From a virus, in the IMG/VR virus record IMGVR_UViG_3300044591_002420, positions 1-64,000 of that record: a stretch of DNA of 64,000 nucleotides. One strand, 5' to 3'. The notes beneath the pieces are model-generated. The model was not told the origin of the DNA and searched no databases. It saw nothing but the letters and a program-made list of their open reading frames with translations. This document shows positions 4,905 to 46,183 of the stretch, piece by piece (the first letter of the stretch is position 1; the number at the start of each line of letters is the position of its first letter). A program made the position numbers and the translations under genes.

Positions 4905-5672
4905 ATGTCTGTTCTACCTCGTCCAGTTTATCCTACCTATGAGATTGTTATTCCATCTCTTAAAAAGAAAGTAAAGTTTCGTCCTTATAGAGCAGTAGAA
5001 GAAAAAGTTCTTGCAATCGCAATGGAGAGTGAAAACATCTCTGAGATTACTACTGCGATTAAGATGATTCTTGAAAATTGTATTCAAGCTAAAGATGTTG
5101 ATGTAGAAAGACTTGCAACTTTTGACATTGAATATCTTTTTCTTAATATTCGGGCAAAGGCATCCGGAGAGGTTATTGAACTTCAGGTTCTTTATCCTGG
5201 TGAAGAAGATCTTTATGTTCCTGTTAAGGTCAATATTGATGAGATTAAGATACAGGAAACAAAAGGACACACCAATATTATTAAACTTGATGATGATATG
5301 ACGATGATTATGAAGTATCCAACCTTTGACTTCTTCATCAAAGAGCAATTTGAGATGCCAGAAGATGCGGATACCGAAGATAAAATGAAGAAAGGTTATG
5401 ATCTTATTGCTTCTTGTGTTGATAAGATCTGTAAAGGCGAAGATGTATGGTTAGCGGAAGATGTAGGAAGAGAAGAAGTTATTTCTTTTCTAGATGATCT
5501 TCTCACGAAACAGTTTGAAAAAGTTGAGGAGTTTCTTAATACAATGCCGCAACTAAAACATACAATTAAGATTCAACATCCAACTCGTACTGTTATTGAT
5601 CCAAAAACCAAAAAAGAAGTTCCAGAAGAAGCAGAAATTACGCTGAATGGGTTAGTTGATTTTTTTATCTAG
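4905..5672 (+). CDS. gp26: baseplate hub subunit, gp26-like
   Basis: LP..PTYE..PS..KVKFRPY..EEKVL, LATFDIEYLFLNIRAKASGE, GLVDFF; ATAAATA at 4872. Confidence 0.92.
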   Translation: MSVLPRPVYPTYEIVIPSLKKKVKFRPYRAVEEKVLAIAMESENISEITTAIKMILENCIQAKDVDVERLATFDIEYLFLNIRAKASGEVIELQVLYPGEEDLYVPVKVNIDEIKIQETKGHTNIIKLDDDMTMIMKYPTFDFFIKEQFEMPEDADTEDKMKKGYDLIASCVDKICKGEDVWLAEDVGREEVISFLDDLLTKQFEKVEEFLNTMPQLKHTIKIQHPTRTVIDPKTKKEVPEEAEITLNGLVDFFI

Positions 5673-5674
5673 GA

Positions 5675-5863
5675 ATGTCGCACACCAATCTTGAGGTGTA
5701 TTATCGGCGAATGTTTGCATTAGTTCAATATCATAAATGGAATCCCGAATGGCTAGATAATATACTACCATGGGAATTTGATGCATATGTTGAAATGTTA
5801 AAAATGCATCTAGAAGAAGAAAAAGTCAAACAGCAACAACAACAAAGTCAAAATAGGGCCTAA
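5675..5863 (+). CDS. gp51: baseplate hub assembly catalyst, gp51-like
   Basis: YY..FALVQYHKW..LDNILPWEFDAYV; follows gp26. Confidence 0.85.
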   Translation: MSHTNLEVYYRRMFALVQYHKWNPEWLDNILPWEFDAYVEMLKMHLEEEKVKQQQQQSQNRA

Positions 5864-5889
5864 ATATTCTGTAGTATCCATAAGCCATA

Positions 5890-8583
5890 ATGCCGGCAAC
5901 AAGAGTACGCCGCCCTAAAATAGAGGATCTTAAATTAACACCAGTTCAGTTAGCGAAAGCGCAAGATTTCGTAGAAGATCTTGGAATTGGTGCTAAGGAT
6001 CCTCTATATTATTATGCGATCTTATGGTGTAAAAATCACGAAAAGTCAAACGGTGATTTTCTAACAGATAATCAAAGAAAAAAGTTTGATTCCGACGTAA
6101 GCAAAAAGAGACGAAGTGCTCTCACGCTTAAGATTTTAGGTGAGATTAGCTTATTACAAGAATCGGATAAAGATGATAAAGATCGGTTGCAAAATAATAC
6201 TCCTGCAGCTAATCAACAAATAAGAGCTAACACAACTCGTTTAAGACGACAGAAAACAAAACCGATAAATCTGGCACCTACATTAAAAATCACTATTGAT
6301 AAGAGTGAAGTAGAAAAAGGTGAAAGTTATACCGTAAGCTGGAAGTCTGAAAATGCAATAACCGTTTCTAGATCTGTTGGATTTTTTCCAAAGATTCCAG
6401 ACGTTGAACTGAGTGGATCTAGAAGTTTTGTTGCAGATAGAATTGGTAGTAAGACTTTTGCTATCACAGTAAGATCATCATCCGGTAGAGGAGTATTATC
6501 CACAGCAAAAATTCAAATTGTTGAGACAAAAACATTACCTGATCAACAAGCGGCTCCAGCATCATCGCAACCAAGAATAAAAACCGCAAGATTAACATCT
6601 TCTCAAGGGCCAACACAAGTTTTTGTTGATATTAATGATTCACTCACAAATATTATTAAGATTCTTGATGCTCAGAATAAGTTTCTTCTAAAAATACGTA
6701 AGAAAAAGACCCAAGAAGATGAGAATGAGAATCGCAAAAAAAGAGAATCTCTGTTAGAAAAATCTAAAGGATTCAGAAAACAGGTAATGGAAAAAGCCAT
6801 GGCTCCTGTTAAGAATCTTCTTGAGAGAATATGGAAATTCATATATCTTACTTTTCTAGGAAGAGTTTTTACTGAATTTATAAAATGGGCAAGTGATCCA
6901 AGTAATGCAGGAAAAATAAAATCTATTAGTAGATTCTTTAAAGACTTTTGGATTTGGATTGCTGGTGCCGCGACAATATTCTTTACTCCTTTGTTCGGAC
7001 TCATTAAAGGAACACTGGGCACACTCAATTTTTTCAGTAAAGTATTATTAAAAGTCCCCATAAGAAATTTATTATTTAATCCTACGGTTTTAGCTATAGC
7101 TGGAATAACGGGATTGGCAGTTGCGGCGAATGAAGTAACAGGACAACGAAAAGCAGCAAAGCTTCAGACAGAAAGAGCTGCCAAAGTTCAAGCCGGAAAG
7201 GCAATTGATGTTCCTGGTATTGATATTATTAACGAAAAGTATAAAACTCCTGGAATCGGCGGAAGAACTGAAAGAGGTTTCCTAAAAGGCGCATCTACTG
7301 GTGGAATCGTAACACCTAGCACCGGAATAACAGTAAAGGGAGCTGGTGTTGATACTCAATTAGTTCCAATTCAAGATGGTGGTTCTGTTGTCTTACAAAA
7401 AGGAGAAGCGATTCTTCAAAAAGGTGCAAGGGAACGAATGATCTCTTCAACCGGAATTGATCCTCTTATGTTCAATATTGGTGCTAATGCTAATAGACCA
7501 AGAACAATCGGATCTAAGTTGACCGCAATGAGCACAGGTGGAATTGTTGGAGGTAAATTAGATCTCATAAAACCACAAGCTAGATCTATTCTTGACAGAC
7601 TTATTAAAGGTGGTTTAACACCAACAGCCGCCGCTGGTGTTGTTTCTAATATTGGAGTTGAAAGTGCTTACACTTATGATCCAAATACTCATCAACATAG
7701 AGGTGGTCCTGGTAGAGGATTAGTTCAATGGGAAAAGGGCGGAAGATTTGATACTGATCCAATGAATCTTACATCTTTTGCTAAAAGTAGAGGAAAACCA
7801 TGGAACGATCTTAATACTCAAGTTGATTTCATTCTACATGAACTAAACAATCATCCAGAATATAGTTTGGTAAAAGATAAAATCAATAAGGCTAAAAATA
7901 TAGGAGAAGCAACTAGAATCTTTTTAAATGATTACGAGAAAGCTGGTACTCCTCATATTGAAAATAGATTAGCTGTTGGTAATCAATTGATGAAAAGTGG
8001 TTGGTTAAATCCACCAAAACAAAAAACAAAATCTCAGTTTCCCGATATACTGAGAATGCTCACAGGTCAGCCTAGAGCGGTTTCGGCTGCGGAATCATCC
8101 AAACCGAGCCGAACATCAACCAAGCCAAAACCGATGCCGAAACCTCAATCCCCGCAACGGTCTTGGTGGGATCCTAGACGCCTTATGGGGCTGAAAAAGG
8201 GTGGTCTGATAAGAGCGAGCCATCCGTCAGTTGGAAGTAATCCAGATGATAAACATTTAGCACTTTTGAAAGCAGGTGAGTATGTTATTCCTAGACTTAC
8301 TGTTCAACGAGTCGGATTAAATTTCTTTGATAATCTTGTTGCAAAAACCGACGAGAATTCAAATGCCGCTAGAATGTTACCAATTCCAAAAGATGATAGT
8401 ATTCTTCCGCCATCACCAAGAATGAGTAATATGGGAGGATTTATATCACTTCCACCAATTGCAAATAACATGATGGATGATAAAACAAATTCTCCTGTGA
8501 CAAGTGTTCCGAGTTTTGGTGTTATTGCGCCGATGGGAACTGGTGTTCGTCAGATGCTCGCTGAAATTTACGGTATCGGTTAA
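5890..8583 (+). CDS. large tail protein with phage tail lysozyme domain
   Basis: AAAGVVSNIGVES..GRGLVQW..QVDFILHEL..FLNDYEKAG; hydrophobic tape-measure-like segment; CTAAATA at 5860. Confidence 0.75.
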   Translation: MPATRVRRPKIEDLKLTPVQLAKAQDFVEDLGIGAKDPLYYYAILWCKNHEKSNGDFLTDNQRKKFDSDVSKKRRSALTLKILGEISLLQESDKDDKDRLQNNTPAANQQIRANTTRLRRQKTKPINLAPTLKITIDKSEVEKGESYTVSWKSENAITVSRSVGFFPKIPDVELSGSRSFVADRIGSKTFAITVRSSSGRGVLSTAKIQIVETKTLPDQQAAPASSQPRIKTARLTSSQGPTQVFVDINDSLTNIIKILDAQNKFLLKIRKKKTQEDENENRKKRESLLEKSKGFRKQVMEKAMAPVKNLLERIWKFIYLTFLGRVFTEFIKWASDPSNAGKIKSISRFFKDFWIWIAGAATIFFTPLFGLIKGTLGTLNFFSKVLLKVPIRNLLFNPTVLAIAGITGLAVAANEVTGQRKAAKLQTERAAKVQAGKAIDVPGIDIINEKYKTPGIGGRTERGFLKGASTGGIVTPSTGITVKGAGVDTQLVPIQDGGSVVLQKGEAILQKGARERMISSTGIDPLMFNIGANANRPRTIGSKLTAMSTGGIVGGKLDLIKPQARSILDRLIKGGLTPTAAAGVVSNIGVESAYTYDPNTHQHRGGPGRGLVQWEKGGRFDTDPMNLTSFAKSRGKPWNDLNTQVDFILHELNNHPEYSLVKDKINKAKNIGEATRIFLNDYEKAGTPHIENRLAVGNQLMKSGWLNPPKQKTKSQFPDILRMLTGQPRAVSAAESSKPSRTSTKPKPMPKPQSPQRSWWDPRRLMGLKKGGLIRASHPSVGSNPDDKHLALLKAGEYVIPRLTVQRVGLNFFDNLVAKTDENSNAARMLPIPKDDSILPPSPRMSNMGGFISLPPIANNMMDDKTNSPVTSVPSFGVIAPMGTGVRQMLAEIYGIG

Positions 8584-41282: not shown

Positions 41283-41885
41283 ATGACGATCACTACAGAA
41301 CAAGTTAAGACTCTCAGAGAGAAAACCGGAGCCGGAATGATGCTCTGTAAAGAAGCACTCAAATCTTCTTCAGGAGATCAAGAAGGTGCAATACTTTGGC
41401 TCAGACAAAAAGGAATTACACTAGCCGATGGTAAGATCGGTAGATCTACTACCGAAGGTGCAATCGGAACTTATATTCATACTGGCAGCCGAGTTGGTGT
41501 GATGGTTGAGATTCTTTGTGAGACAGATTTTGTTGCAAAGACACCGGAATTTCAAGAACTGATTCGTAACATTGGAATGCAGATTGCGGCATGTCCTAAT
41601 GTTCAAGGTATCAGTCTAGATGATATTCCTCAGAGTTTTATTGATTCTGAAACTGCTCTTGAAATGAGTAAAGCTGATCTGGCCAATAAACCAGAAGCAA
41701 TTCGTCAAAAGATTGTAGAAGGAAGAGTTGGTAAGAAACTCAAAGAAGTTACGCTTATGAGCCAACCTTATGCTAAAGATTCTACCATTACAGTTGAAAC
41801 ATTAATCAAGAACTTTTCTGCTCAATTTGGTGAGAATATTGTTGTTAGACGCTTTGTGCGTTTTGTACTTGGTGAGGATCTATGA
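41283..41885 (+). CDS. tsf: translation elongation factor Ts (short cyanobacterial type)
   Basis: VKTLREKTGAGMM.CK.AL, LRQKG, EG.IG.YIH.G, CETDFVA, MQIAA, RRFVRFVLGE; 200 aa. Confidence 0.96.
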   Translation: MTITTEQVKTLREKTGAGMMLCKEALKSSSGDQEGAILWLRQKGITLADGKIGRSTTEGAIGTYIHTGSRVGVMVEILCETDFVAKTPEFQELIRNIGMQIAACPNVQGISLDDIPQSFIDSETALEMSKADLANKPEAIRQKIVEGRVGKKLKEVTLMSQPYAKDSTITVETLIKNFSAQFGENIVVRRFVRFVLGEDL

Positions 41886-42074: not shown

Positions 42075-42473
42075 ATGGGAACTAGAGCTGATTTTTACGT
42101 TGGAGTTGGACCTAACGCCGAATGGTTAGGAAGTGTTGCATGGGATGGTTATGAATGGCAAGTAAAACCAGATTGCTCTTTAATGAAAGCGAAAACTGAA
42201 GAAGAATTTCGTAGTGCTGTTAAGTTAATTTCAGAAAAACGAGATGATTGGACATCAGTAGAACAAGGTTGGCCGTGGCCATGGAACGATAGTTTTACTA
42301 CTGATAGAACCTATGCATTTGTTGATGGAAAAACTCAAGACTATAATTGGGGCTGTTTGCCAGTGGATGACGAAGATGAAGACACTGTAAAAACTGTAGA
42401 GTGGCCAAATATGGAATCAAGAAAAAATGTCAATTATGGTAATCGTTCGGGACTTCTTATTTTTTCTGTGTGA
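42075..42473 (+). CDS. hypothetical Trp-rich protein
   Basis: MGTRADFYVG..EWLGS.AWDGY..GWPWPW. Confidence 0.6.
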   Translation: MGTRADFYVGVGPNAEWLGSVAWDGYEWQVKPDCSLMKAKTEEEFRSAVKLISEKRDDWTSVEQGWPWPWNDSFTTDRTYAFVDGKTQDYNWGCLPVDDEDEDTVKTVEWPNMESRKNVNYGNRSGLLIFSV

Positions 42474-42518
42474 TACTCTATCTTGTTTCCAGCCAATCCT
42501 GAAACCGTCCACTGCCTC

Positions 42519-42547
42519 TTGACAAACTAGCTCCTCCATGCTAGATT
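42519..42547 (+). promoter_or_regulatory. sigma70-like promoter of the DUF2828/ncRNA/tRNA operon
   Basis: TTGACA-17-TAGATT with TGn extension; AAACCGTCCAC half-site upstream. Confidence 0.8.
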
Positions 42548-42558
42548 GAACAAGTTCA

Positions 42559-42622
42559 AAGATGAGACAGCAATTCCCTTCGCTCTTTCCTTTTAAGAAA
42601 ACCAAGCCAAAAAACTCATCTT
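42559..42622 (+). ncRNA. CAGCA-motif RNA, copy 1 (5' leader; Lys UUU-like loop)
   Basis: AAGATGAG/CTCATCTT stem, ACAGCAA, inner hairpin TTTC-CTTTTAA-GAAA. Confidence 0.7.
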
Positions 42623-42643
42623 GTTTAATCACCCAAACTAATT

Positions 42644-42853
42644 ATGAATCCAACCCAATCACTAGAGCCTCATCAACAACGAATGATTGATGAGCATTCC
42701 GAACTTTCTCAACGTCTTTCTGATCTTCGCCGCTTTTTTGATAATCCTTATTTTAAAGATCTACCTGAAGCCGAACGAGTGCGCATGAAAGCTCAAGAGC
42801 TTTTTATGACTGGTTACGAAAACATCTTGAGCCAAAGAATCGCCGCTATCTGA
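42644..42853 (+). CDS. small helical protein, crAss001_48-like
   Basis: HQQRMIDE..EL..R...L..F....F..L..Q...M..Y..IL..RI pattern. Confidence 0.65.
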   Translation: MNPTQSLEPHQQRMIDEHSELSQRLSDLRRFFDNPYFKDLPEAERVRMKAQELFMTGYENILSQRIAAI

Positions 42854-42900
42854 ATTAAGTTAATTCCGCACCGATAACACACATTAACTTGGAGAATACC

Positions 42901-44364
42901 ATGACTTTTATGAACGCTCTTTCTACCGAAATGAATAATACGATCACCGCAAATGGTGCAAAGGCATACGAATCAACTCAAAACGAATGTCTTGATCTCT
43001 ACGGTTCCATTGGTGCTTGTCGTAATAATCTCACTCTAGCAGAGCGTCTATTCTTTGCGGCATACGAACAACATCCAGAAACGGCAGTACGAATTCTGTT
43101 CTATTCTCGTGATATTCGCGGAGCAAGTCAAGGTGAACGCGCAGTCTTCCGAGCACTGATGCCTAAACTTGCTCATAAGAATCCAAGAATCGCAACACGT
43201 TTGGTGTCTTTGATTCCTTATTATGGTCGCTGGGATGATCTTCTGTGTCTAGAGAATACTCCAGTTTGGAATGAAGTCTTGAAAACCATTGAAACTCAAC
43301 TGAAGACGGATATGAGTAGCGATAAGACTTCGCTGCTTGCCAAATGGCTTCCTTCTATCAATGCATCATCTAAAGATAGTAAGCGACTGGGTAGGCTGAT
43401 CGCAGCTCATATGGGTTGGTCTGAACGTCAATATCGCAAAAATCTTTCTTCACTTCGGGCTAAGATCAAGATTGTTGAAACTCCGATGTGTGCGAAAGAA
43501 TGGAGTGTTATTGATTACGAGCATCTTCCTTCTCGTGCAGCATTCATGTATCGCAAGGCATTTAAGAAGCATGATGAGACTCGTTATTCAGATTATCTCT
43601 CACGAGTAGAGAAAGGTGAAGCTAAGATCAATGCGGGAACACTGTATCCTTATGATATTGTTAATAAGTATCTTTTTCAAGGTGCTCGTAATGATAAGAC
43701 TCTTGAACTTCAATGGAATGCCTTGCCCAATTACATGGAAGATCTAGAATTTAATGGTCTTGTTGTTGCCGATGTTTCTGGTTCTATGATGAATAATAGT
43801 GGTATGCCAATGGCAGTTTCCATCTCGCTTGCAATGTATATTGCTGAGCGTAATCCATCTAAGATCTGGAAGAATAAATTTCTGACTTTCTCTCAAGCTC
43901 CAAAACTTCAAACTATTCTAGGCAACAACATTGAAGAAAAAATTCGTTATCTACAAGGAGCTGAATGGGGTATGAATACTGATCTGATTGCAGTCTTTAA
44001 TACCATTCTGAAAGCTGCAACTGAGAATAATGTCGCTGCTAAAGACATGCCCCAAAAACTGATTATTGTTTCCGATATGCAATTTGATGTGGCATGTAGA
44101 TCCAATAAGCGTACTAACTTTGAGCAAATTCAAAAAATGTATCGGAAGTCTGGTTATGAGATGCCTCAGCTTATTTTCTGGAATGTAAACGCAAGTGCTA
44201 ATGTTCCGATTCAAGCTGATGACACTGGAACCGCATTAGTTTCTGGTTGTAGTCCTGCTATTCTGAAGTCTGTTCTGAGCGGTAAAATCGTATCTCCTGT
44301 GGATGTTATGATGGATAACCTTTATGTAGAACGTTATGCTCCGATTGGTGAAGTTTTTGCCTGA
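42901..44364 (+). CDS. DUF2828-family protein with C-terminal vWA domain (TROVE/Ro60-like architecture)
   Basis: RDIRG..QGER, YGRWDDL, AKWLP, MIDAS motif DVSGSM, WGMNTD, SDMQFD, IFWNV, LVSG.SP; GGAG SD before ATG 42901. Confidence 0.88.
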   Translation: MTFMNALSTEMNNTITANGAKAYESTQNECLDLYGSIGACRNNLTLAERLFFAAYEQHPETAVRILFYSRDIRGASQGERAVFRALMPKLAHKNPRIATRLVSLIPYYGRWDDLLCLENTPVWNEVLKTIETQLKTDMSSDKTSLLAKWLPSINASSKDSKRLGRLIAAHMGWSERQYRKNLSSLRAKIKIVETPMCAKEWSVIDYEHLPSRAAFMYRKAFKKHDETRYSDYLSRVEKGEAKINAGTLYPYDIVNKYLFQGARNDKTLELQWNALPNYMEDLEFNGLVVADVSGSMMNNSGMPMAVSISLAMYIAERNPSKIWKNKFLTFSQAPKLQTILGNNIEEKIRYLQGAEWGMNTDLIAVFNTILKAATENNVAAKDMPQKLIIVSDMQFDVACRSNKRTNFEQIQKMYRKSGYEMPQLIFWNVNASANVPIQADDTGTALVSGCSPAILKSVLSGKIVSPVDVMMDNLYVERYAPIGEVFA

Positions 44365-44377
44365 TTGATAAATTCTT

Positions 44378-44427
44378 AAGATGGTTCAGCAATTCTCCTA
44401 TGTTTTGGGTACATAAAAGACCATCTT
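44378..44427 (+). ncRNA. CAGCA-motif RNA, copy 2 (Pro UGG-like loop)
   Basis: AAGATGGTT/GACCATCTT stem, CAGCAA, TATGT-TTTGGGT-ACATA. Confidence 0.72.
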
Positions 44428-44434
44428 GTTTAAC

Positions 44435-44550
44435 GGGCGGGTAGCTCAGTTGGTAGAGCAGTAGAGCACTTAAAACAAATCTAGTTTAGATTTTAACAGC
44501 ATTATAAATACAAAATCTCCGGGTCCTAGGTTCAAGTCCTAGTCCGCCCA
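44435..44550 (+). tRNA. tRNA-like gene (Phe-like body) with ~43-nt permuted CAGCA insert in the anticodon loop; anticodon unresolved
   Basis: Acceptor GGGCGGG/TCCGCCC; D arm GCTC-AGTTGGTA-GAGC; T arm CTAGG-TTCAAGT-CCTAG; 50 nt between GTAGA and TCTCC. Confidence 0.8.
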
Positions 44551-44551
44551 T

Positions 44552-44598
44552 TAGATGATTCAGCAATTCTTTCTTTGCTAGGAACAAAAAATCATCTA
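44552..44598 (+). ncRNA. CAGCA-motif RNA, copy 3 (tRNA 3' trailer)
   Basis: TAGATGATT/AATCATCTA stem, CAGCAA, TTCT-TTGCTA-GGAA. Confidence 0.72.
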
Positions 44599-44627
44599 GT
44601 CTTTTCATATTTTTATACTCAAACACA

Positions 44628-44681
44628 AAGATAGTTCAGCAAATTTAACACGAATGCCATCATGTTCATCACAACTATCTT
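44628..44681 (+). ncRNA. CAGCA-motif RNA, copy 4
   Basis: AAGATAGTT/AACTATCTT stem, CAGCAA, AACACGA-ATGCCA-TCATGTT. Confidence 0.72.
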
Positions 44682-44688
44682 GTTTACT

Positions 44689-44803
44689 GTCGTGTTCGTC
44701 TAACTTGATAGGACGCCTATAAAACAAATCTCGTTGAGATTTTAACAGCATTACAAATTTCCTTGTCCCGGAGGTAATCTAGGTTCAAATCCTAGACACG
44801 GCG
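44689..44803 (+). tRNA. tRNA-Asp(GTC) interrupted by a 42-nt permuted CAGCA insert (44719-44760)
   Basis: Acceptor GTCGTGT/ACACGGC; removing the insert gives CCTCC-TTGTCCC-GGAGG and a 73-nt cloverleaf. Confidence 0.8.
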
Positions 44804-44804
44804 T

Positions 44805-44851
44805 TAGATGATTCAGCATTTATTTCTCTGCTAAGAAAACAAAATCATCTA
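44805..44851 (+). ncRNA. CAGCA-motif RNA, copy 5 (tRNA 3' trailer; Ser GCU-like loop)
   Basis: TAGATGATT/AATCATCTA stem, CAGCA, TTTCT-CTGCTA-AGAAA. Confidence 0.72.
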
Positions 44852-44878
44852 GTTAAACAACTCTTTCAACTCTCAAAA

Positions 44879-45124
44879 ATGTTCACTATCATCGTTGATT
44901 TACTCTCATCACTAATTGTATCAGTTATTCTTTTCTTTAGTGGCTTAAAATTGGGAGCTGATGCTATGAGGGACATGACTGTTATCTACTGTAATGAAAA
45001 TCCCACAATTTGTCAACAAGAATACAAGAATACGAAATCTCAGTATCCAAATCTTAATTTTACTGTAGAAGCTCCTTCTATTGGTCAAGAAAAACCCAAA
45101 GTGAACATTATTGATACAAAATAA
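44879..45124 (+). CDS. small membrane-anchored hypothetical protein
   Basis: N-terminal hydrophobic helix; C..NP..C motif. Confidence 0.55.
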   Translation: MFTIIVDLLSSLIVSVILFFSGLKLGADAMRDMTVIYCNENPTICQQEYKNTKSQYPNLNFTVEAPSIGQEKPKVNIIDTK

Positions 45125-45129
45125 CCAAC

Positions 45130-45203
45130 AGCGGGCGAGTGTAACGGTAGTCACGTCGGGCTCATAACCCGGAGGAATATGGGTTCAATTCCCAGGTCCG
45201 CCA
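45130..45203 (+). tRNA. initiator tRNA-fMet(CAT)
   Basis: TCGGG-CTCATAA-CCCGG with three G-C pairs; 1:72 mismatch in AGCGGGC/GTCCGCC; T loop TTCAATT. Confidence 0.85.
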
Positions 45204-45204
45204 T

Positions 45205-45261
45205 TAGATGATTCAGCAATTTCAAAACTTTCTTATTGGTTTAGAAAACAAAAATCATCTA
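45205..45261 (+). ncRNA. CAGCA-motif RNA, copy 6 (tRNA 3' trailer)
   Basis: TAGATGATT/AATCATCTA stem, CAGCAA, TTTCT..TTGGTT..AGAAA, ACAAAA. Confidence 0.72.
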
Positions 45262-45268
45262 GCTCATT

Positions 45269-45388
45269 AGAAGAGTAGCCCAATTGGTTGAGGCGAGCTT
45301 AGAAACAAAAAGCATCTTGTAAAAGATGATTCAGCATTAAAAATTCTAAGGAAAAGCTTTGATGTTGGTTCAAATCCAGCCTCTTCTA
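45269..45388 (+). tRNA. tRNA-like gene with permuted CAGCA insert replacing the anticodon loop; anticodon unresolved
   Basis: Acceptor AGAAGAG/CTCTTCT; D stem GCC/GGC; anticodon stem AGCTT/AAGCT enclosing 53 nt; T arm GTTGG-TTCAAAT-CCAGC. Confidence 0.78.
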
Positions 45389-45463
45389 TCTGGATAAATA
45401 ATATCCAACAGACTTTAACACAACAAAAACGATCACTTAGTCTGTGTGATCTCAAGGAAACAA

Positions 45464-46183
45464 ATGATGTACTCAAATCAATTTGCCGCAACAATCAAGG
45501 TAAACAATAAAATTCTCCGGGAGTTTGGAGACACTGTTTATCTTCCCTTCGGTTCCGAATATCAAATTCGTCTTAAAAATCTCAATACAACAAGAGCCAA
45601 AGTAACAGTTGAAATTGACGGACAAAATGTTACTGATGGTGGTCTTGTTATTGATTCATTCCAAACTGTTGATCTAGAACGATTCATTCGTAATGGTAAT
45701 CTTTCCGAAGGAAATCGCTTTAAATTTATTGAACGAACTTCTAAAATTGAAGATCATCGTGGAATTAAACTAGAAGATGGTTTGATTACAATTCGTTATG
45801 AGTATGAGATGTCTTATGCTCCTTTATACGATTTTAAATATCCAAAAGCACAAAAAAATAATTTTATTAATGAATGTTCATATCGCAGTATGAACATCAA
45901 TTCGGGACCAACAGCTAAGTTAACCTCTCAGACTGAAACTGGAATTACTGTAGAGGGTTCCAAGAGTAATCAAAAATTTAATACTACTTCTTGGAGAGGA
46001 TCAATTGGTGGCTCTCATGTGATGGTTATTAAACTTTTGGGTGAAACAAAAGAGAACAAAAAAGTAAGAGAACCTGTTACCATCAAGACTAAACTAGAGT
46101 GTAAAACTTGCGGAACAACTAATCCTGTAACCTCAAAGTTCTGTTCTGAGTGTGGAACTTCTTTAGAGATTGTAGGTGGATAA
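45464..46183 (+). CDS. conserved phage protein with C-terminal zinc ribbon
   Basis: YLPFGSEY.IRLKN..IDG..LERF; C-terminal CKTCG..FCSECG; AAGGA SD. Confidence 0.75.
   Translation: MMYSNQFAATIKVNNKILREFGDTVYLPFGSEYQIRLKNLNTTRAKVTVEIDGQNVTDGGLVIDSFQTVDLERFIRNGNLSEGNRFKFIERTSKIEDHRGIKLEDGLITIRYEYEMSYAPLYDFKYPKAQKNNFINECSYRSMNINSGPTAKLTSQTETGITVEGSKSNQKFNTTSWRGSIGGSHVMVIKLLGETKENKKVREPVTIKTKLECKTCGTTNPVTSKFCSECGTSLEIVGG

What the first reader, a model, noticed from the sequence alone, without database searches (positions are those of the whole stretch)
42586..45246. The variable P2 hairpins of the motif look like tRNA anticodon stem-loops
Seen: TTTC-CTTTTAA-GAAA (canonical Lys UUU loop) and TATGT-TTTGGGT-ACATA (5 bp plus 7-nt Pro UGG loop with G37). 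Weaker cases: CTGCTAA and TTGCTAG (Ser GCU), ATGCCAT (Gly GCC), TTGGTTT (Thr GGU). All have T before the triplet, like U33. Established: anticodon nucleases such as PrrC (tRNA-Lys UUU) act in anti-phage defence. Inference: a panel of anticodon decoys on a common protein-binding scaffold, or donors of anticodon loops for the anticodon-less tRNA bodies nearby. Only the Lys and Pro cases have clean 7-nt geometry.
Basis: partly seen in the sequence, partly recalled or inferred. Interest (0 to 1): 0.82.

Follow-up and report, generated by a model that had tools for sequence, protein, structure and literature searches.

The report
Anticodon-arm hairpins on Ro60-partner RNAs
A lake-water phage surrounds the gene for a Ro60-shaped protein with small RNAs that share one constant "handle" and carry pieces of tRNA, and some of their variable hairpins are true copies of tRNA anticodon loops while others are not.

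Summary
Two have clean anticodon-arm geometry: 42586-42600 (loop CTTTTAA) and 44399-44415 (loop TTTGGGT). The other four have 6-, 8- or 9-nt loops or a wobble stem.

In 52 non-redundant relatives, a hairpin with a 7-nt loop occurs in 26, against 12 expected. Six of those 26 loops are identical to real anticodon loops of these phages, and 13 are within one mismatch. Permutation controls give 0.3 and 2.7.

Three results cut the other way:
- An anticodon-like 7-mer found anywhere in the cargo is no more than chance (20/52 versus 17.6).
- U33 is present in only 13/26 loops.
- In the class best supported by covariation, position 33 is the most variable loop position.

The motif is a "handle": a 7-bp helix, then NCAGCAAU, with an A-rich strand opposite. 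It flanks a Ro60-like DUF2828/DUF7788 gene in 46/47 related loci and sits in that gene's 5' UTR in 44/45. The same handle lies circularly permuted inside tRNA-like bodies, directly 5' of their anticodon arm, so P2 occupies the anticodon-arm position.

Best reading: Y-RNA-like partner RNAs displaying reduced tRNA parts. A decoy function is untested, and the "loop donor" idea has no support. This scan has met the same system before on other DNA.

The parts
42519..42547 (+). sigma-70-like promoter (TTGACA, 17 nt, TAGATT with TG) ahead of the first handle RNA
   Evidence: 10 of 12 matches; this is a consensus match only. Similar TTGACA promoters precede the arrays in L001 and L004.
42560..42621 (+). 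Handle RNA U1. P1 is AGATGAG/CTCATCT, followed by ACAGCAAU. P2 is TTTC-CTTTTAA-GAAA at 42586-42600 (the Lys-UUU-like loop).
   Evidence: In the alignment of 19 orthologs, P2 is 100% paired and 3 of 4 pairs show compensatory changes. The loop consensus is C-N-N-T-T-A-A.
42644..42853 (+). 69-aa ORF (Pfam crAss001_48-related) lying between U1 and U2. Relatives in which U1 and U2 are adjacent lack it.
42858..42889 (+). Handle copy U2 in the 5' UTR of the Ro60-like gene. P1 is AGTTAAT/ATTAACT, followed by TCCGCA (a degenerate CAGCA). It has no P2. P1b is followed by GGAG, and the ATG is 11 nt downstream.
   Evidence: 44 of 45 loci have such a copy 7-13 nt before the ATG
42901..44364 (+). Ro60-like protein gene (Pfam DUF2828 + DUF7788; TROVE-like helical ring plus vWA domain)
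   Evidence: Pfam E 1e-35 and 2e-52; AF2 pLDDT 88, pTM 0.88; all 12 matches listed at E <= 6e-4 are Ro60/TROVE chains, TM up to 0.61
44379..44426 (+). Handle RNA D-a. P2 is TATGT-TTTGGGT-ACATA at 44399-44415 (the Pro-UGG-like loop).
   Evidence: The loop is identical to that of 7 genuine tRNA-Pro genes in relatives. The window's own tRNA-Pro has TTTGGGG.
44435..44550 (+). tRNA-like body 1. The permuted handle (P1b 44477-44483, P1a 44487-44493, CAGCAUU 44497-44503) stands in place of the anticodon loop.
   Evidence: Rfam tRNA 44.1 bits with a 52-nt insert
44553..44597 (+). Handle RNA D-b. The candidate P2 is TTTC-TTTGCTA-GGAA at 44570-44584 (one G-U pair, pyrimidine at position 37).
44629..44680 (+). 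Handle RNA D-e. P2 is AACACGA-ATGCCA-TCATGTT at 44647-44666 (6-nt loop, one mismatch).
   Evidence: No ortholog was seen in relatives.
44688..44804 (+). tRNA-like body 2 (called by neither ARAGORN nor Rfam). The handle lies between the D arm and a hairpin TTTCC-TTGTCCC-GGAGG at 44758-44774.
44806..44850 (+). Handle RNA D-d. P2 is TTTC-TCTGCTAA-GAAA at 44823-44838 (8-nt loop containing the Ser-GCU loop string). The ortholog L011:3581 has a clean TCTTA-CTGCTAA-TAAGA.
45130..45203 (+). Ordinary tRNA-Met (CAT), followed 2 nt later by a handle RNA
45206..45260 (+). Handle RNA D-c. P2 is TTTCT-TATTGGTTT-AGAAA at 45229-45247 (9-nt loop).
45269..45388 (+). tRNA-like body 3. The permuted handle (P1b 45313-45318, P1a 45323-45328, CAGCAUU 45332-45338) lies inside the anticodon loop. 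The stem AGCTT/AAGCT is kept and no anticodon can be restored.
   Evidence: Rfam tRNA 36 bits with a 57-nt insert

Best explanation
The units are partner RNAs of the neighbouring Ro60-like protein, analogous to Y RNAs.

Each unit has a constant handle: a 7-bp helix closing the RNA, NCAGCAAU on the 5' side and an A/C-rich strand on the 3' side. This is the presumed docking site of the protein. Each also has a variable cargo taken from tRNA.

The cargo forms a graded series across relatives:
- a whole tRNA body (handle circularly permuted, sitting just 5' of the anticodon arm or replacing the loop);
- a T arm plus hairpins;
- a lone hairpin, P2;
- nothing (the 5'-UTR copy).

P2 is therefore, by position and probably by descent, an anticodon arm. 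Some copies still carry loops identical to real anticodon loops: Lys UUU and Pro UGG in this window, and Ser GCU in a relative. They are not held to the rules of a decoding tRNA, because U33 varies and loops of 6, 8 and 9 nt occur.

Inferred, not shown:
- RNase P and RNase Z cut the array at the tRNA(-like) bodies and release the 45-62-nt handle RNAs.
- The protein binds the handle, and represses its own mRNA through the 5'-UTR copy.
- The displayed tRNA parts engage tRNA-recognising proteins of the host, as bait or as tether.
For: - Fold: the AF2 model has pLDDT 88. All 12 Foldseek matches listed at E <= 6e-4 are Ro60/TROVE chains, E 1.6e-7 to 6e-4, over the whole length.
- Linkage: handles lie on the gene's strand in 46 of 47 close loci (152 copies, against 1 on the opposite strand) and in 7 of 26 distant loci (13 against 2). 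In the 125-kb contig the AG-anchored handle search found all six free-standing copies at this locus, plus 5 other pattern matches elsewhere that I did not examine.
- 5'-UTR copy next to the SD-like sequence in 44 of 45 loci.
- Circular permutation inside 56 distinct tRNA-like bodies. In the families that keep an anticodon arm, the arm follows the CAGCAAU strand exactly as P2 does. Pairing across the insert covaries (CG|CCT..AGGCG against CT|CCT..AGGAG).
- Cargo series: T-arm cargos with GGTTCGATTCC, and multi-hairpin cargos. Phage Sf14 has a handle-closed permuted tRNA.
- P2 is real: covariation in 3 of 4 pairs, and 7-nt loops in 26 of 52 against 12.1 expected.
- Loops match real anticodon loops: 6 of 26 exact and 13 of 26 within one mismatch, against 0.32 and 2.66 in permutations. 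The real loops come from full-length tRNAs elsewhere in the loci.
- Handle RNAs start 1-2 nt after the discriminator of the preceding tRNA(-like) gene.
Against: - No binding, processing or expression data exist beyond one metatranscriptome contig, which could be DNA carry-over.
- The protein profile finds no solved Ro60 by sequence. The relation rests on a predicted fold.
- Rfam's Y RNA/YrlA models do not match, even at E <= 10.
- Half of the cargos (26 of 52) lack a 7-nt-loop hairpin.
- U33 is present in 13 of 26 loops. T is about as common at positions 32 and 34-36 (10-13 of 26), so the U33 signal is not position-specific.
- Anticodon-like 7-mers are common by composition alone. T-rich 5' strands and A-rich 3' strands could produce part of the resemblance.
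- The strict search found handles in only 7 of 26 distant loci.
Confidence: 0.6

Rival explanations
1. The P2 and anticodon-arm modules are decoys or inhibitors for host anticodon nucleases (or other anticodon-loop enzymes), presented on the Ro60-like ring. Variants with position 33 changed would bind but not be cut.
For: - Loops are identical or nearly identical to real Lys, Asn, Pro, Ser, Phe and Glu anticodon loops.
- The upstream class keeps C32, U35, U36, A37 and A38 while position 33 varies (T6 G7 C4 A2 of 19). The same C/A-N-N-T-T-A-A loops occur in one family of tRNA-like bodies (CTTTTAA, CGTTTAA, ACGTTAA, AGGTTAA).
- Close relatives differ only in the three middle loop bases (CTGCAAA, CTGTAAA, CTCCAAA).
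- The embedded loops break decoding rules: A32 in all 6 loops of one family and C37 in the commonest loop ATTGTCA (hand tally). This fits mimicry better than translation.
- Passages read in PMC11482910: a Ro60-like protein of phage Bas63 counters the Ppl defence.
- Passages read in PMC10264068: phage tRNAs are proposed to resist anticodon nucleases through loop changes.
Against: - No nuclease is known for the host of this phage.
- No cleavage or competition data exist.
- Ppl is not described as a tRNA nuclease in the passage read.
- Many cargos carry no anticodon-like loop, and others carry T arms or nothing. A decoy panel cannot be the whole story.
Confidence: 0.2
2. P2 is a generic spacer hairpin. 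Its likeness to anticodon loops comes from base composition (pyrimidine-rich 5' strand, A-rich 3' strand, AT-rich loops) and from choosing frames by eye.
For: - The structure-independent test shows no enrichment: 20 of 52 against 17.6, and 4 of 6 against 2.75 in the window.
- T is about equally frequent at positions 32-36, and A at 37-38.
- Loop lengths of 6, 8 and 9 nt occur in the window.
- Minimum-energy folds often prefer other pairings.
Against: - Only 7-nt loops are enriched, with 9 nt as a by-product. Loops of 3-6, 8 and 10 nt are not.
- Exact loop identity occurs with stems that are not homopolymeric: TATGT/ACATA, TCTTA/TAAGA, TAGA/TCTA.
- The TTTGG loop core is conserved while the stems change.
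- P2 has positional equivalence with the anticodon arms of tRNA-like bodies.
Confidence: 0.2
3. The handle is a splicing element. In the tRNA-like bodies it would be a roughly 45-nt intron, removed to give working tRNAs. The free-standing units would be permuted intron-exon units that release (or donate, in trans) anticodon hairpins.
For: - In one family, deleting the insert between nucleotides 29 and 30 restores a perfect 5-bp stem ACGGC/GCCGT with 7-nt loops that have U33 and a purine at position 37 (ATTGTAA, ATTGGGG, ATTCTAA, ATTCGGA, ATGTTAA, ATTGGGA).
- The free-standing form has the order 3' half, hairpin, 5' half.
- P1 helices share an ATCT/AGAT core that would allow some pairing in trans.
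Against: - The same pairing is equally satisfied by a three-way junction without splicing.
- Two of the three window bodies cannot regain an anticodon loop by any deletion.
- The only RNA contig is contiguous across the insert, and no spliced joint was seen.
- No Rfam ribozyme or intron model matches.
- Ro60-type proteins are not nucleases or ligases (established knowledge).
- The P2 stems do not fit the bodies' anticodon stems.
Confidence: 0.06
4. The 'Pro' loops are not anticodon mimics. They would be UGGN elements that pair with the NCCA 3' end of tRNAs, as in T-box leaders.
For: TTGG is nearly invariant in ten downstream handle RNAs, while the following base varies. TGGT is the commonest form, and A the commonest discriminator.
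Against: - There is no informative covariation between N and the discriminator of the neighbouring tRNA: 9 matched A/T pairs and 6 others.
- The window loop equals real tRNA-Pro loops at all 7 positions.
- The T-box parallel is recalled, not tested.
Confidence: 0.04

Closest known systems
Ro60 (Rsr) with Y RNAs, especially bacterial and phage YrlA (Chen et al. 2014, PMC4201824; abstract and passages read)
   Same: - A ring-shaped TROVE+vWA-type protein encoded next to small RNAs.
- The RNA ends form a stem thought to bind the protein.
- A second module mimics tRNA.
- Several RNAs per locus.
   Different: - The protein belongs to Pfam DUF2828/DUF7788, not TROVE, and is not found by sequence against solved Ro60.
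- The handle (7 bp plus NCAGCAAU) is unlike the Y RNA helix, and no Rfam Y RNA/YrlA hit was found.
- Cargos include lone anticodon-arm hairpins and complete tRNA bodies with open acceptor ends.
- A copy sits in the gene's own 5' UTR.
Class I RNAs of dictyostelid amoebae (Kjellin et al. 2021, PMC7919456; passages read). The lead came from earlier scan notes.
   Same: - Length 42-65 nt.
- A short stem joins the 5' and 3' ends, with covarying sequence.
- A conserved motif lies directly after the 5' strand, with C, C, A, A at motif positions 6, 9, 10, 11. The window handle fits these four positions, and the Sf14 handle also fits T at position 3.
- The remainder is variable.
- The RNAs start with AAG and end with CUGU. 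Here they start with A/TAG and end with CU(A/U)GU.
   Different: - Class I RNAs are eukaryotic, nuclear-encoded genes with their own promoter element.
- The paper reports an RRM protein partner.
- No link to a DUF2828 protein or to tRNA parts is made in the passages I read.
- Homology was not tested here.
Phage-encoded tRNAs proposed to resist or replace tRNAs cut by host anticodon nucleases (PMC10264068 passages; PMC11555353, search listing and abstract only)
   Same: - They are tRNA-derived phage RNAs in tRNA clusters.
- Anticodon-loop changes are seen as an adaptation to tRNA-targeting defence.
   Different: Those are complete, decoding tRNAs. Here the modules are fragments, or tRNA shapes interrupted by a protein-binding handle, and several break decoding rules.
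Archaeal tRNA introns at non-canonical positions, and permuted or split tRNA genes
   Same: - Inserts lie in or next to the anticodon arm, including position 29/30.
- tRNA parts are circularly permuted.
   Different: - No bulge-helix-bulge motif was looked for or seen.
- The organism is a phage of bacteria.
- There is no evidence of splicing.

Membership tests
tRNA anticodon stem-loop (canonical) | 7-nt loop closed by a stem of about 5 bp | tested here: inconclusive
   Window: 2 of 6 are clean, 1 has a G-U pair, and 3 have 6-, 8- or 9-nt loops. Relatives: 26 of 52 non-redundant cargos have a stem of at least 4 bp with a 7-nt loop, against 12.1 expected.
tRNA anticodon stem-loop (canonical) | Invariant U33 | tested here: not met
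   13 of 26 loops and 6 of 19 in the covarying upstream class. Real tRNAs of the same loci: 68 of 69 distinct loops.
tRNA anticodon stem-loop (canonical) | Purine at position 37 and pyrimidine at position 32 | tested here: inconclusive
   R37 in 18 of 26 loops and Y32 in 21 of 26. Real tRNAs: 67 of 69 and 69 of 69. Generic hairpin loops of the genome: about 49% and 50%.
tRNA anticodon stem-loop (canonical) | Loop sequence equal to that of a genuine tRNA | tested here: met
   Met for a subset only. 6 of 26 are exact and 13 of 26 are within one mismatch, against 0.32 and 2.66 in 2000 permutations. The window loops CTTTTAA and TTTGGGT are exact.
Y RNA / YrlA (Ro60 partner RNAs) | Encoded beside a Ro60-type protein gene | tested here: met
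   Ro60-like predicted fold. 46 of 47 close loci carry handles on the gene's strand.
Y RNA / YrlA (Ro60 partner RNAs) | Match to the curated Rfam models of Y RNA / YrlA | tested here: not met
   cmscan of 42400-45500 at E <= 10 gave only tRNA hits and three chance-level matches.
Y RNA / YrlA (Ro60 partner RNAs) | Terminal stem plus a tRNA-like second module | tested here: met
   P1 closes the free-standing units. Cargos include T arms, anticodon-arm hairpins and whole tRNA bodies.
Y RNA / YrlA (Ro60 partner RNAs) | Physical binding to the Ro60-type protein | not testable with these tools
   Only indirect evidence: co-occurrence and the 5'-UTR copy.
Dictyostelid Class I RNA | Length 42-65 nt, a 6-bp terminal stem, and an 11-nt motif after the 5' strand with T3, C6, C9, A10, A11 | tested here: inconclusive
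   Window units are 45-62 nt with a 7-bp stem. C6, C9, A10 and A11 fit and T3 does not. Sf14 units fit all five. No covariance model of Class I RNA was run.
tRNA intron (self-splicing or enzyme-spliced) | A spliced product exists, or a known intron or ribozyme core is present | tested here: not met
   No Rfam intron or ribozyme hit. The single RNA contig is unspliced across 44449-44677. That is weak evidence: one run, contigs only.

The most novel reading that the evidence does not exclude
A modular phage ribonucleoprotein. One Ro60-like ring takes interchangeable RNAs that each present a different tRNA part. These include anticodon arms whose loops copy Lys, Asn, Pro or Ser tRNAs but are altered at the cleavage-adjacent position 33. 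They would act as uncleavable baits that trap or report host anticodon nucleases and other tRNA-directed defence enzymes. The same handle in amoebal Class I RNAs would then point to an ancient, cross-kingdom RNP.
Probability: 0.12. Interest if true: 0.9.

Novelty: new variant of a known kind. Interest (0 to 1): 0.66.

Why it matters
Ro60 and its Y RNAs are known from animals, bacteria and a few phages, but what the tRNA-like part of bacterial Y RNAs does is still open.

Here a second protein family, similar to Ro60 only in predicted fold, comes with a whole panel of RNAs. Their variable parts run from complete tRNA shapes down to single anticodon arms, and some are letter-for-letter copies of real anticodon loops.

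That makes the question testable: which tRNA-binding host proteins are caught by which cargo? The same handle RNAs lie beside the homologous gene in Shigella phage Sf14. A preprint reports that a protein of coliphage Bas63 with high structural similarity to Ro60, encoded directly upstream of its tRNA genes, counters a defence system (PMC11482910, passage read); whether it belongs to the same family was not tested here. Experiments in E. coli are therefore within reach.

I found no paper describing these RNAs: full-text searches for DUF2828, DUF7788 and Y RNA/Ro60/bacteriophage/tRNA-like. Supplements were closed and may hold relevant tables. Within this scan the system is not new; earlier notes report it on many other genomes.

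Tried and rejected
- Sequence search of the protein profile against solved structures: no hit at E <= 10. I moved to a fold comparison.
- Rfam at gathering and at E <= 10: only tRNA hits.
I did not use these calls.
- Minimum-energy folding of 118 unique units gave unstable P2 calls in AU-rich cargos. I replaced it with enumeration of hairpins.
- Grouping loops by identical stems to see which positions vary was too noisy, because the register slips in T/A-run stems. I dropped it except for named examples.
- The alignment of ten 'TTGG' units had indels that prevented a single structure string, so I made no pair count on it.
- UGGN against discriminator covariation: uninformative.
- My automatic 'split stem' caller produced several spurious calls. 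The family tallies for embedded anticodon arms were therefore made by hand, and are marked as such.
- The lax handle search in distant loci was not above its shuffle control overall (53 against 37.9 +/- 6.0, maximum 55). Only the stricter, strand-controlled count is used.
- RNA evidence: of 24 runs listed, one is RNA, with 0.06 of the words. Laid reads gave an unspliced contig and no start or end information. The parts without cover say nothing. A DNA contig in run X4 that skips 44461-44520, with 15 other letters between, is a relative's ordinary tRNA gene, not a spliced form.
- Complex prediction was not used: it scores protein-protein pairs, not protein-RNA pairs.
- No covariance model was built.

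Rows dropped before counts:
- L002-L008, which are the same contigs as later loci.
- Units longer than 70 nt or without a folded P1: 11 of 118.
- Four false hits among the 60 permuted units: L009:5026, L044:4303, L044:5320, L070:1083.
- One odd ARAGORN loop, CAATGCA, removed from the real-loop set.

Full report
**What is there**

The window is from a freshwater cyanophage-like genome. Its nearest named relatives are Synechococcus phages B3 and B23 (about 68% DNA identity over the central gene), and lake-water metagenomes hold it.

Between 42.5 and 45.4 kb, six units of 45-62 nt share one architecture on the + strand:
- a 7-nt strand, P1a (AGATGAT or a variant);
- one base, then CAGCAAU;
- a variable stretch;
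- an A/C-rich run;
- the complement of P1a, followed by (A/T)GT.

A seventh, degenerate copy (42858-42889) lies in the 5' UTR of the central gene. In the 125-kb contig the AG-anchored handle search found all six free-standing copies at this locus, plus 5 other pattern matches elsewhere that I did not examine.

Three tRNA-shaped genes lie among the units: 44435-44550, 44688-44804 and 45269-45388. They carry the same two conserved strands in the opposite order: A-rich strand, P1b, a short loop, P1a, CAGCAUU. This sits in or beside the anticodon arm. That is a circular permutation of one two-helix structure.

**The protein**

The gene at 42901-44364 matches Pfam DUF2828 and DUF7788.

- A profile of six homologs finds no solved structure by sequence.
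- An AlphaFold2 model built on 30 homologs has pLDDT 88 and pTM 0.88.
- All 12 Foldseek matches listed at E <= 6e-4 are Ro60/TROVE chains over their whole length, including the Ro60 of Thermus phage phiLo and Deinococcus Rsr (E 1.6e-7 to 6e-4, TM up to 0.61).

So the protein is Ro60-like by predicted fold. That is an inference, not a membership shown by sequence.

**Linkage of RNA and protein**

I fetched 73 loci around homologs of the protein from viral contigs.

| Set of loci | Loci with at least one handle on the gene's strand | Copies on gene strand | Copies on opposite strand |
|---|---|---|---|
| Close (protein identity 58% or more) | 46 of 47 | 152 | 1 |
| Distant (31-49% identity) | 7 of 26 | 13 | 2 |

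- Clear individual cases appear in more loci under a laxer search, but that search as a whole was not above its shuffle control.
- In 44 of 45 loci where the gene's start is held, a handle ends 7-13 nt before the ATG. An SD-like GGAG or GAGG follows P1b directly. This is the classic layout of a protein that represses its own mRNA (inference).
- Shigella phage Sf14 has a DUF2828 gene at the head of its tRNA array. The spacers there hold the same kind of units. One is a tRNA permuted so that the handle closes it, with an anticodon arm TTTCT-CTTATAA-AGAAA right after the CAGCAA strand.

**Is P2 a real hairpin?**

Yes, for the upstream class, to which 42560-42621 belongs. In an alignment of 19 orthologs:
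- the four P2 pairs are paired in every sequence;
- three of the four pairs show changes on both sides;
- the covariation score is 0.40, against 0.08 in shuffles (0 of 500 reach it).

P1 pairing was a search criterion, so its covariation is not independent evidence in my set.

Across 52 non-redundant cargos (107 unique units of 70 nt or less, clustered at 80%), a stem of at least 4 bp enclosing a 7-nt loop exists in 26. Dinucleotide shuffles give 12.1 +/- 2.7 (0 of 500 reach 26). Loops of 3, 4, 5, 6, 8 and 10 nt are not enriched, and 9 nt is a by-product of the 7-nt hairpins.

By class, a 7-nt-loop hairpin is present in:
- 10 of 11 upstream units;
- 15 of 30 downstream units;
- 1 of 11 5'-UTR units.

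**Are the loops anticodon-like?**

Evidence for:
- I took 452 ARAGORN tRNAs from the loci and the genome. They give 69 distinct anticodon loops, with U33 in 68 of 69 and a purine at 37 in 67 of 69. They are full-length tRNAs, independent of the handles.
- Of the 26 P2 loops, 6 are identical to one of these and 13 are within one mismatch.
- Permuting letters within each loop gives 0.32 and 2.66 (0 of 2000 reach the observed values).
- Generic 7-nt-loop hairpins of the same genome give 0.9% and 8.6% (n = 5719).
- The window's CTTTTAA equals real Lys-UUU loops. TTTGGGT equals real Pro-UGG loops of relatives, and the window's own tRNA-Pro has TTTGGGG.

Evidence against:
- An exact real-loop 7-mer occurs somewhere in 20 of 52 cargos, and shuffles give 17.6 (260 of 1000 reach it). 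In the window it is 4 of 6 against 2.75. Spotting such strings by eye means nothing without the hairpin.
- U33 is present in only 13 of 26 loops, and T is about as frequent at 32 and 34-36 (10-13 of 26).
- R37 is 18 of 26 and Y32 is 21 of 26. Generic hairpins show 36% T at position 33.
- In the covarying upstream class the loop is C-N-N-T-T-A-A. Position 33 is T in 6, G in 7, C in 4 and A in 2 of 19. This is the frame of a Lys/Asn-type loop with the U-turn base free to change.
- Part of the likeness may come from T-rich 5' strands and A-rich 3' strands.

**Positional homology**

The tRNA-like bodies are conserved in relatives: 56 distinct sequences after dropping 4 false hits. They fall into groups.

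- *Insert at 29/30.* The insert splits the anticodon stem between nucleotides 29 and 30. Across it the stem ACGGC/GCCGT and a 7-nt loop are intact. The six distinct loops are ATTGTAA, ATTGGGG, ATTGGGA, ATTCTAA, ATTCGGA and ATGTTAA.
- *Insert at 28/29.* The two halves covary (CG|CCT..AGGCG against CT|CCT..AGGAG). The loops are CTTTTAA, CGTTTAA, ACGTTAA and AGGTTAA, the same consensus as the free-standing upstream class.
- *Handle between the D arm and a complete hairpin.* Body 2 of the window belongs here. Three close relatives differ only in the middle three loop bases (CTGCAAA, CTGTAAA, CTCCAAA).
- *Handle replacing the loop.* Bodies 1 and 3 of the window belong here.

In every group that keeps an anticodon arm, the arm follows the CAGCAAU strand just as P2 does. 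Other free-standing cargos hold a T-arm hairpin (GGTTCGATTCC), or two to three hairpins including a T arm.

The simplest account is a reduction series from tRNA to a lone anticodon arm to nothing.

By my hand tally, the embedded loops have U33 in 18 of 23 and a purine at 37 in 19 of 23. One family has A32 throughout, and the commonest loop, ATTGTCA, has C37. That is looser than decoding tRNAs and argues for mimicry rather than translation.

**How it probably works**

Shown:
- the anatomy;
- the co-occurrence with the gene;
- the 5'-UTR copy;
- the loop statistics;
- the predicted fold.

Inferred:
- A promoter-like site at 42519-47 drives U1, a 69-aa ORF, the 5'-UTR copy, the gene and the array.
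- RNase P and RNase Z cut at the tRNA(-like) bodies. Handle RNAs begin 1-2 nt after the preceding discriminator and end 8 nt before the next body. This would release the units.
- The protein docks on the handle.
- The cargo engages tRNA-recognising proteins.

The splicing and 'donor' readings remain possible only in a weak sense. No spliced junction was seen in the one RNA run, whose contig covers 44449-44677 without a gap. Two of the three window bodies cannot regain an anticodon by deletion.

**Comparison and novelty**

The closest known system is Ro60 with YrlA-type Y RNAs, which also mimic tRNA (PMC4201824). The protein family, the handle and the cargo types all differ, and Rfam's models do not match.

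The handle resembles the conserved core of dictyostelid Class I RNAs as described in PMC7919456. This lead came from earlier scan notes, and I checked it only against the paper's text.

A preprint notes that a Ro60-like protein of phage Bas63 counters the Ppl defence, and guesses that nearby tRNA genes may be Y RNAs (PMC11482910). I found no description of the handle RNAs themselves. Supplements were closed.

Earlier notes of this scan report the same protein-handle pairing on many other genomes. For the scan this is a repeat. The added result here is the quantitative test of the anticodon-arm claim, with its limits.

Noticed in passing
window 41283-41885 (+): A phage-encoded homolog of elongation factor Ts (Pfam EF_TS, E 2.9e-30) lies about 700 nt upstream of the RNA-protein locus.
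   Followed up: no
window 42644-42853 (+): A 69-aa ORF of Pfam family crAss001_48 is inserted between the first handle RNA and the 5'-UTR copy. Relatives such as L019 have the two RNAs adjacent, without this ORF.
   Followed up: partly
window 44879-45124 (+): An 81-aa ORF with no Pfam match sits inside the RNA array, between handle D-d and tRNA-Met.
   Followed up: no
L082 (Shigella phage Sf14) about 5640-6560: The tRNA-array spacers next to the DUF2828 gene gp025 hold at least four unannotated handle RNAs. One is a circularly permuted tRNA closed by the handle.
   Followed up: partly
L006/L007/L008 2511-2804: ARAGORN calls a tmRNA-like gene (tag peptide ANKIVAFSRQTALV) directly upstream of the first handle RNA in three related phage contigs.
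   Followed up: no
window 44404-44410, 45234-45242 and ten relatives (alignment A4): The loop core TTGG is nearly invariant in one group of downstream handle RNAs, while the next base varies. This could be read as a Pro anticodon or as a UGGN element. No covariation with neighbouring discriminator bases was found.
   Followed up: partly
run X4 contig laid on window 44461-44520: A DNA contig from a lake metagenome has the same tRNA body as tRNA-like body 1, but with an ordinary 15-nt anticodon arm (Lys-UUU type) in place of the handle. Insert-free relatives of the body therefore exist.
   Followed up: no
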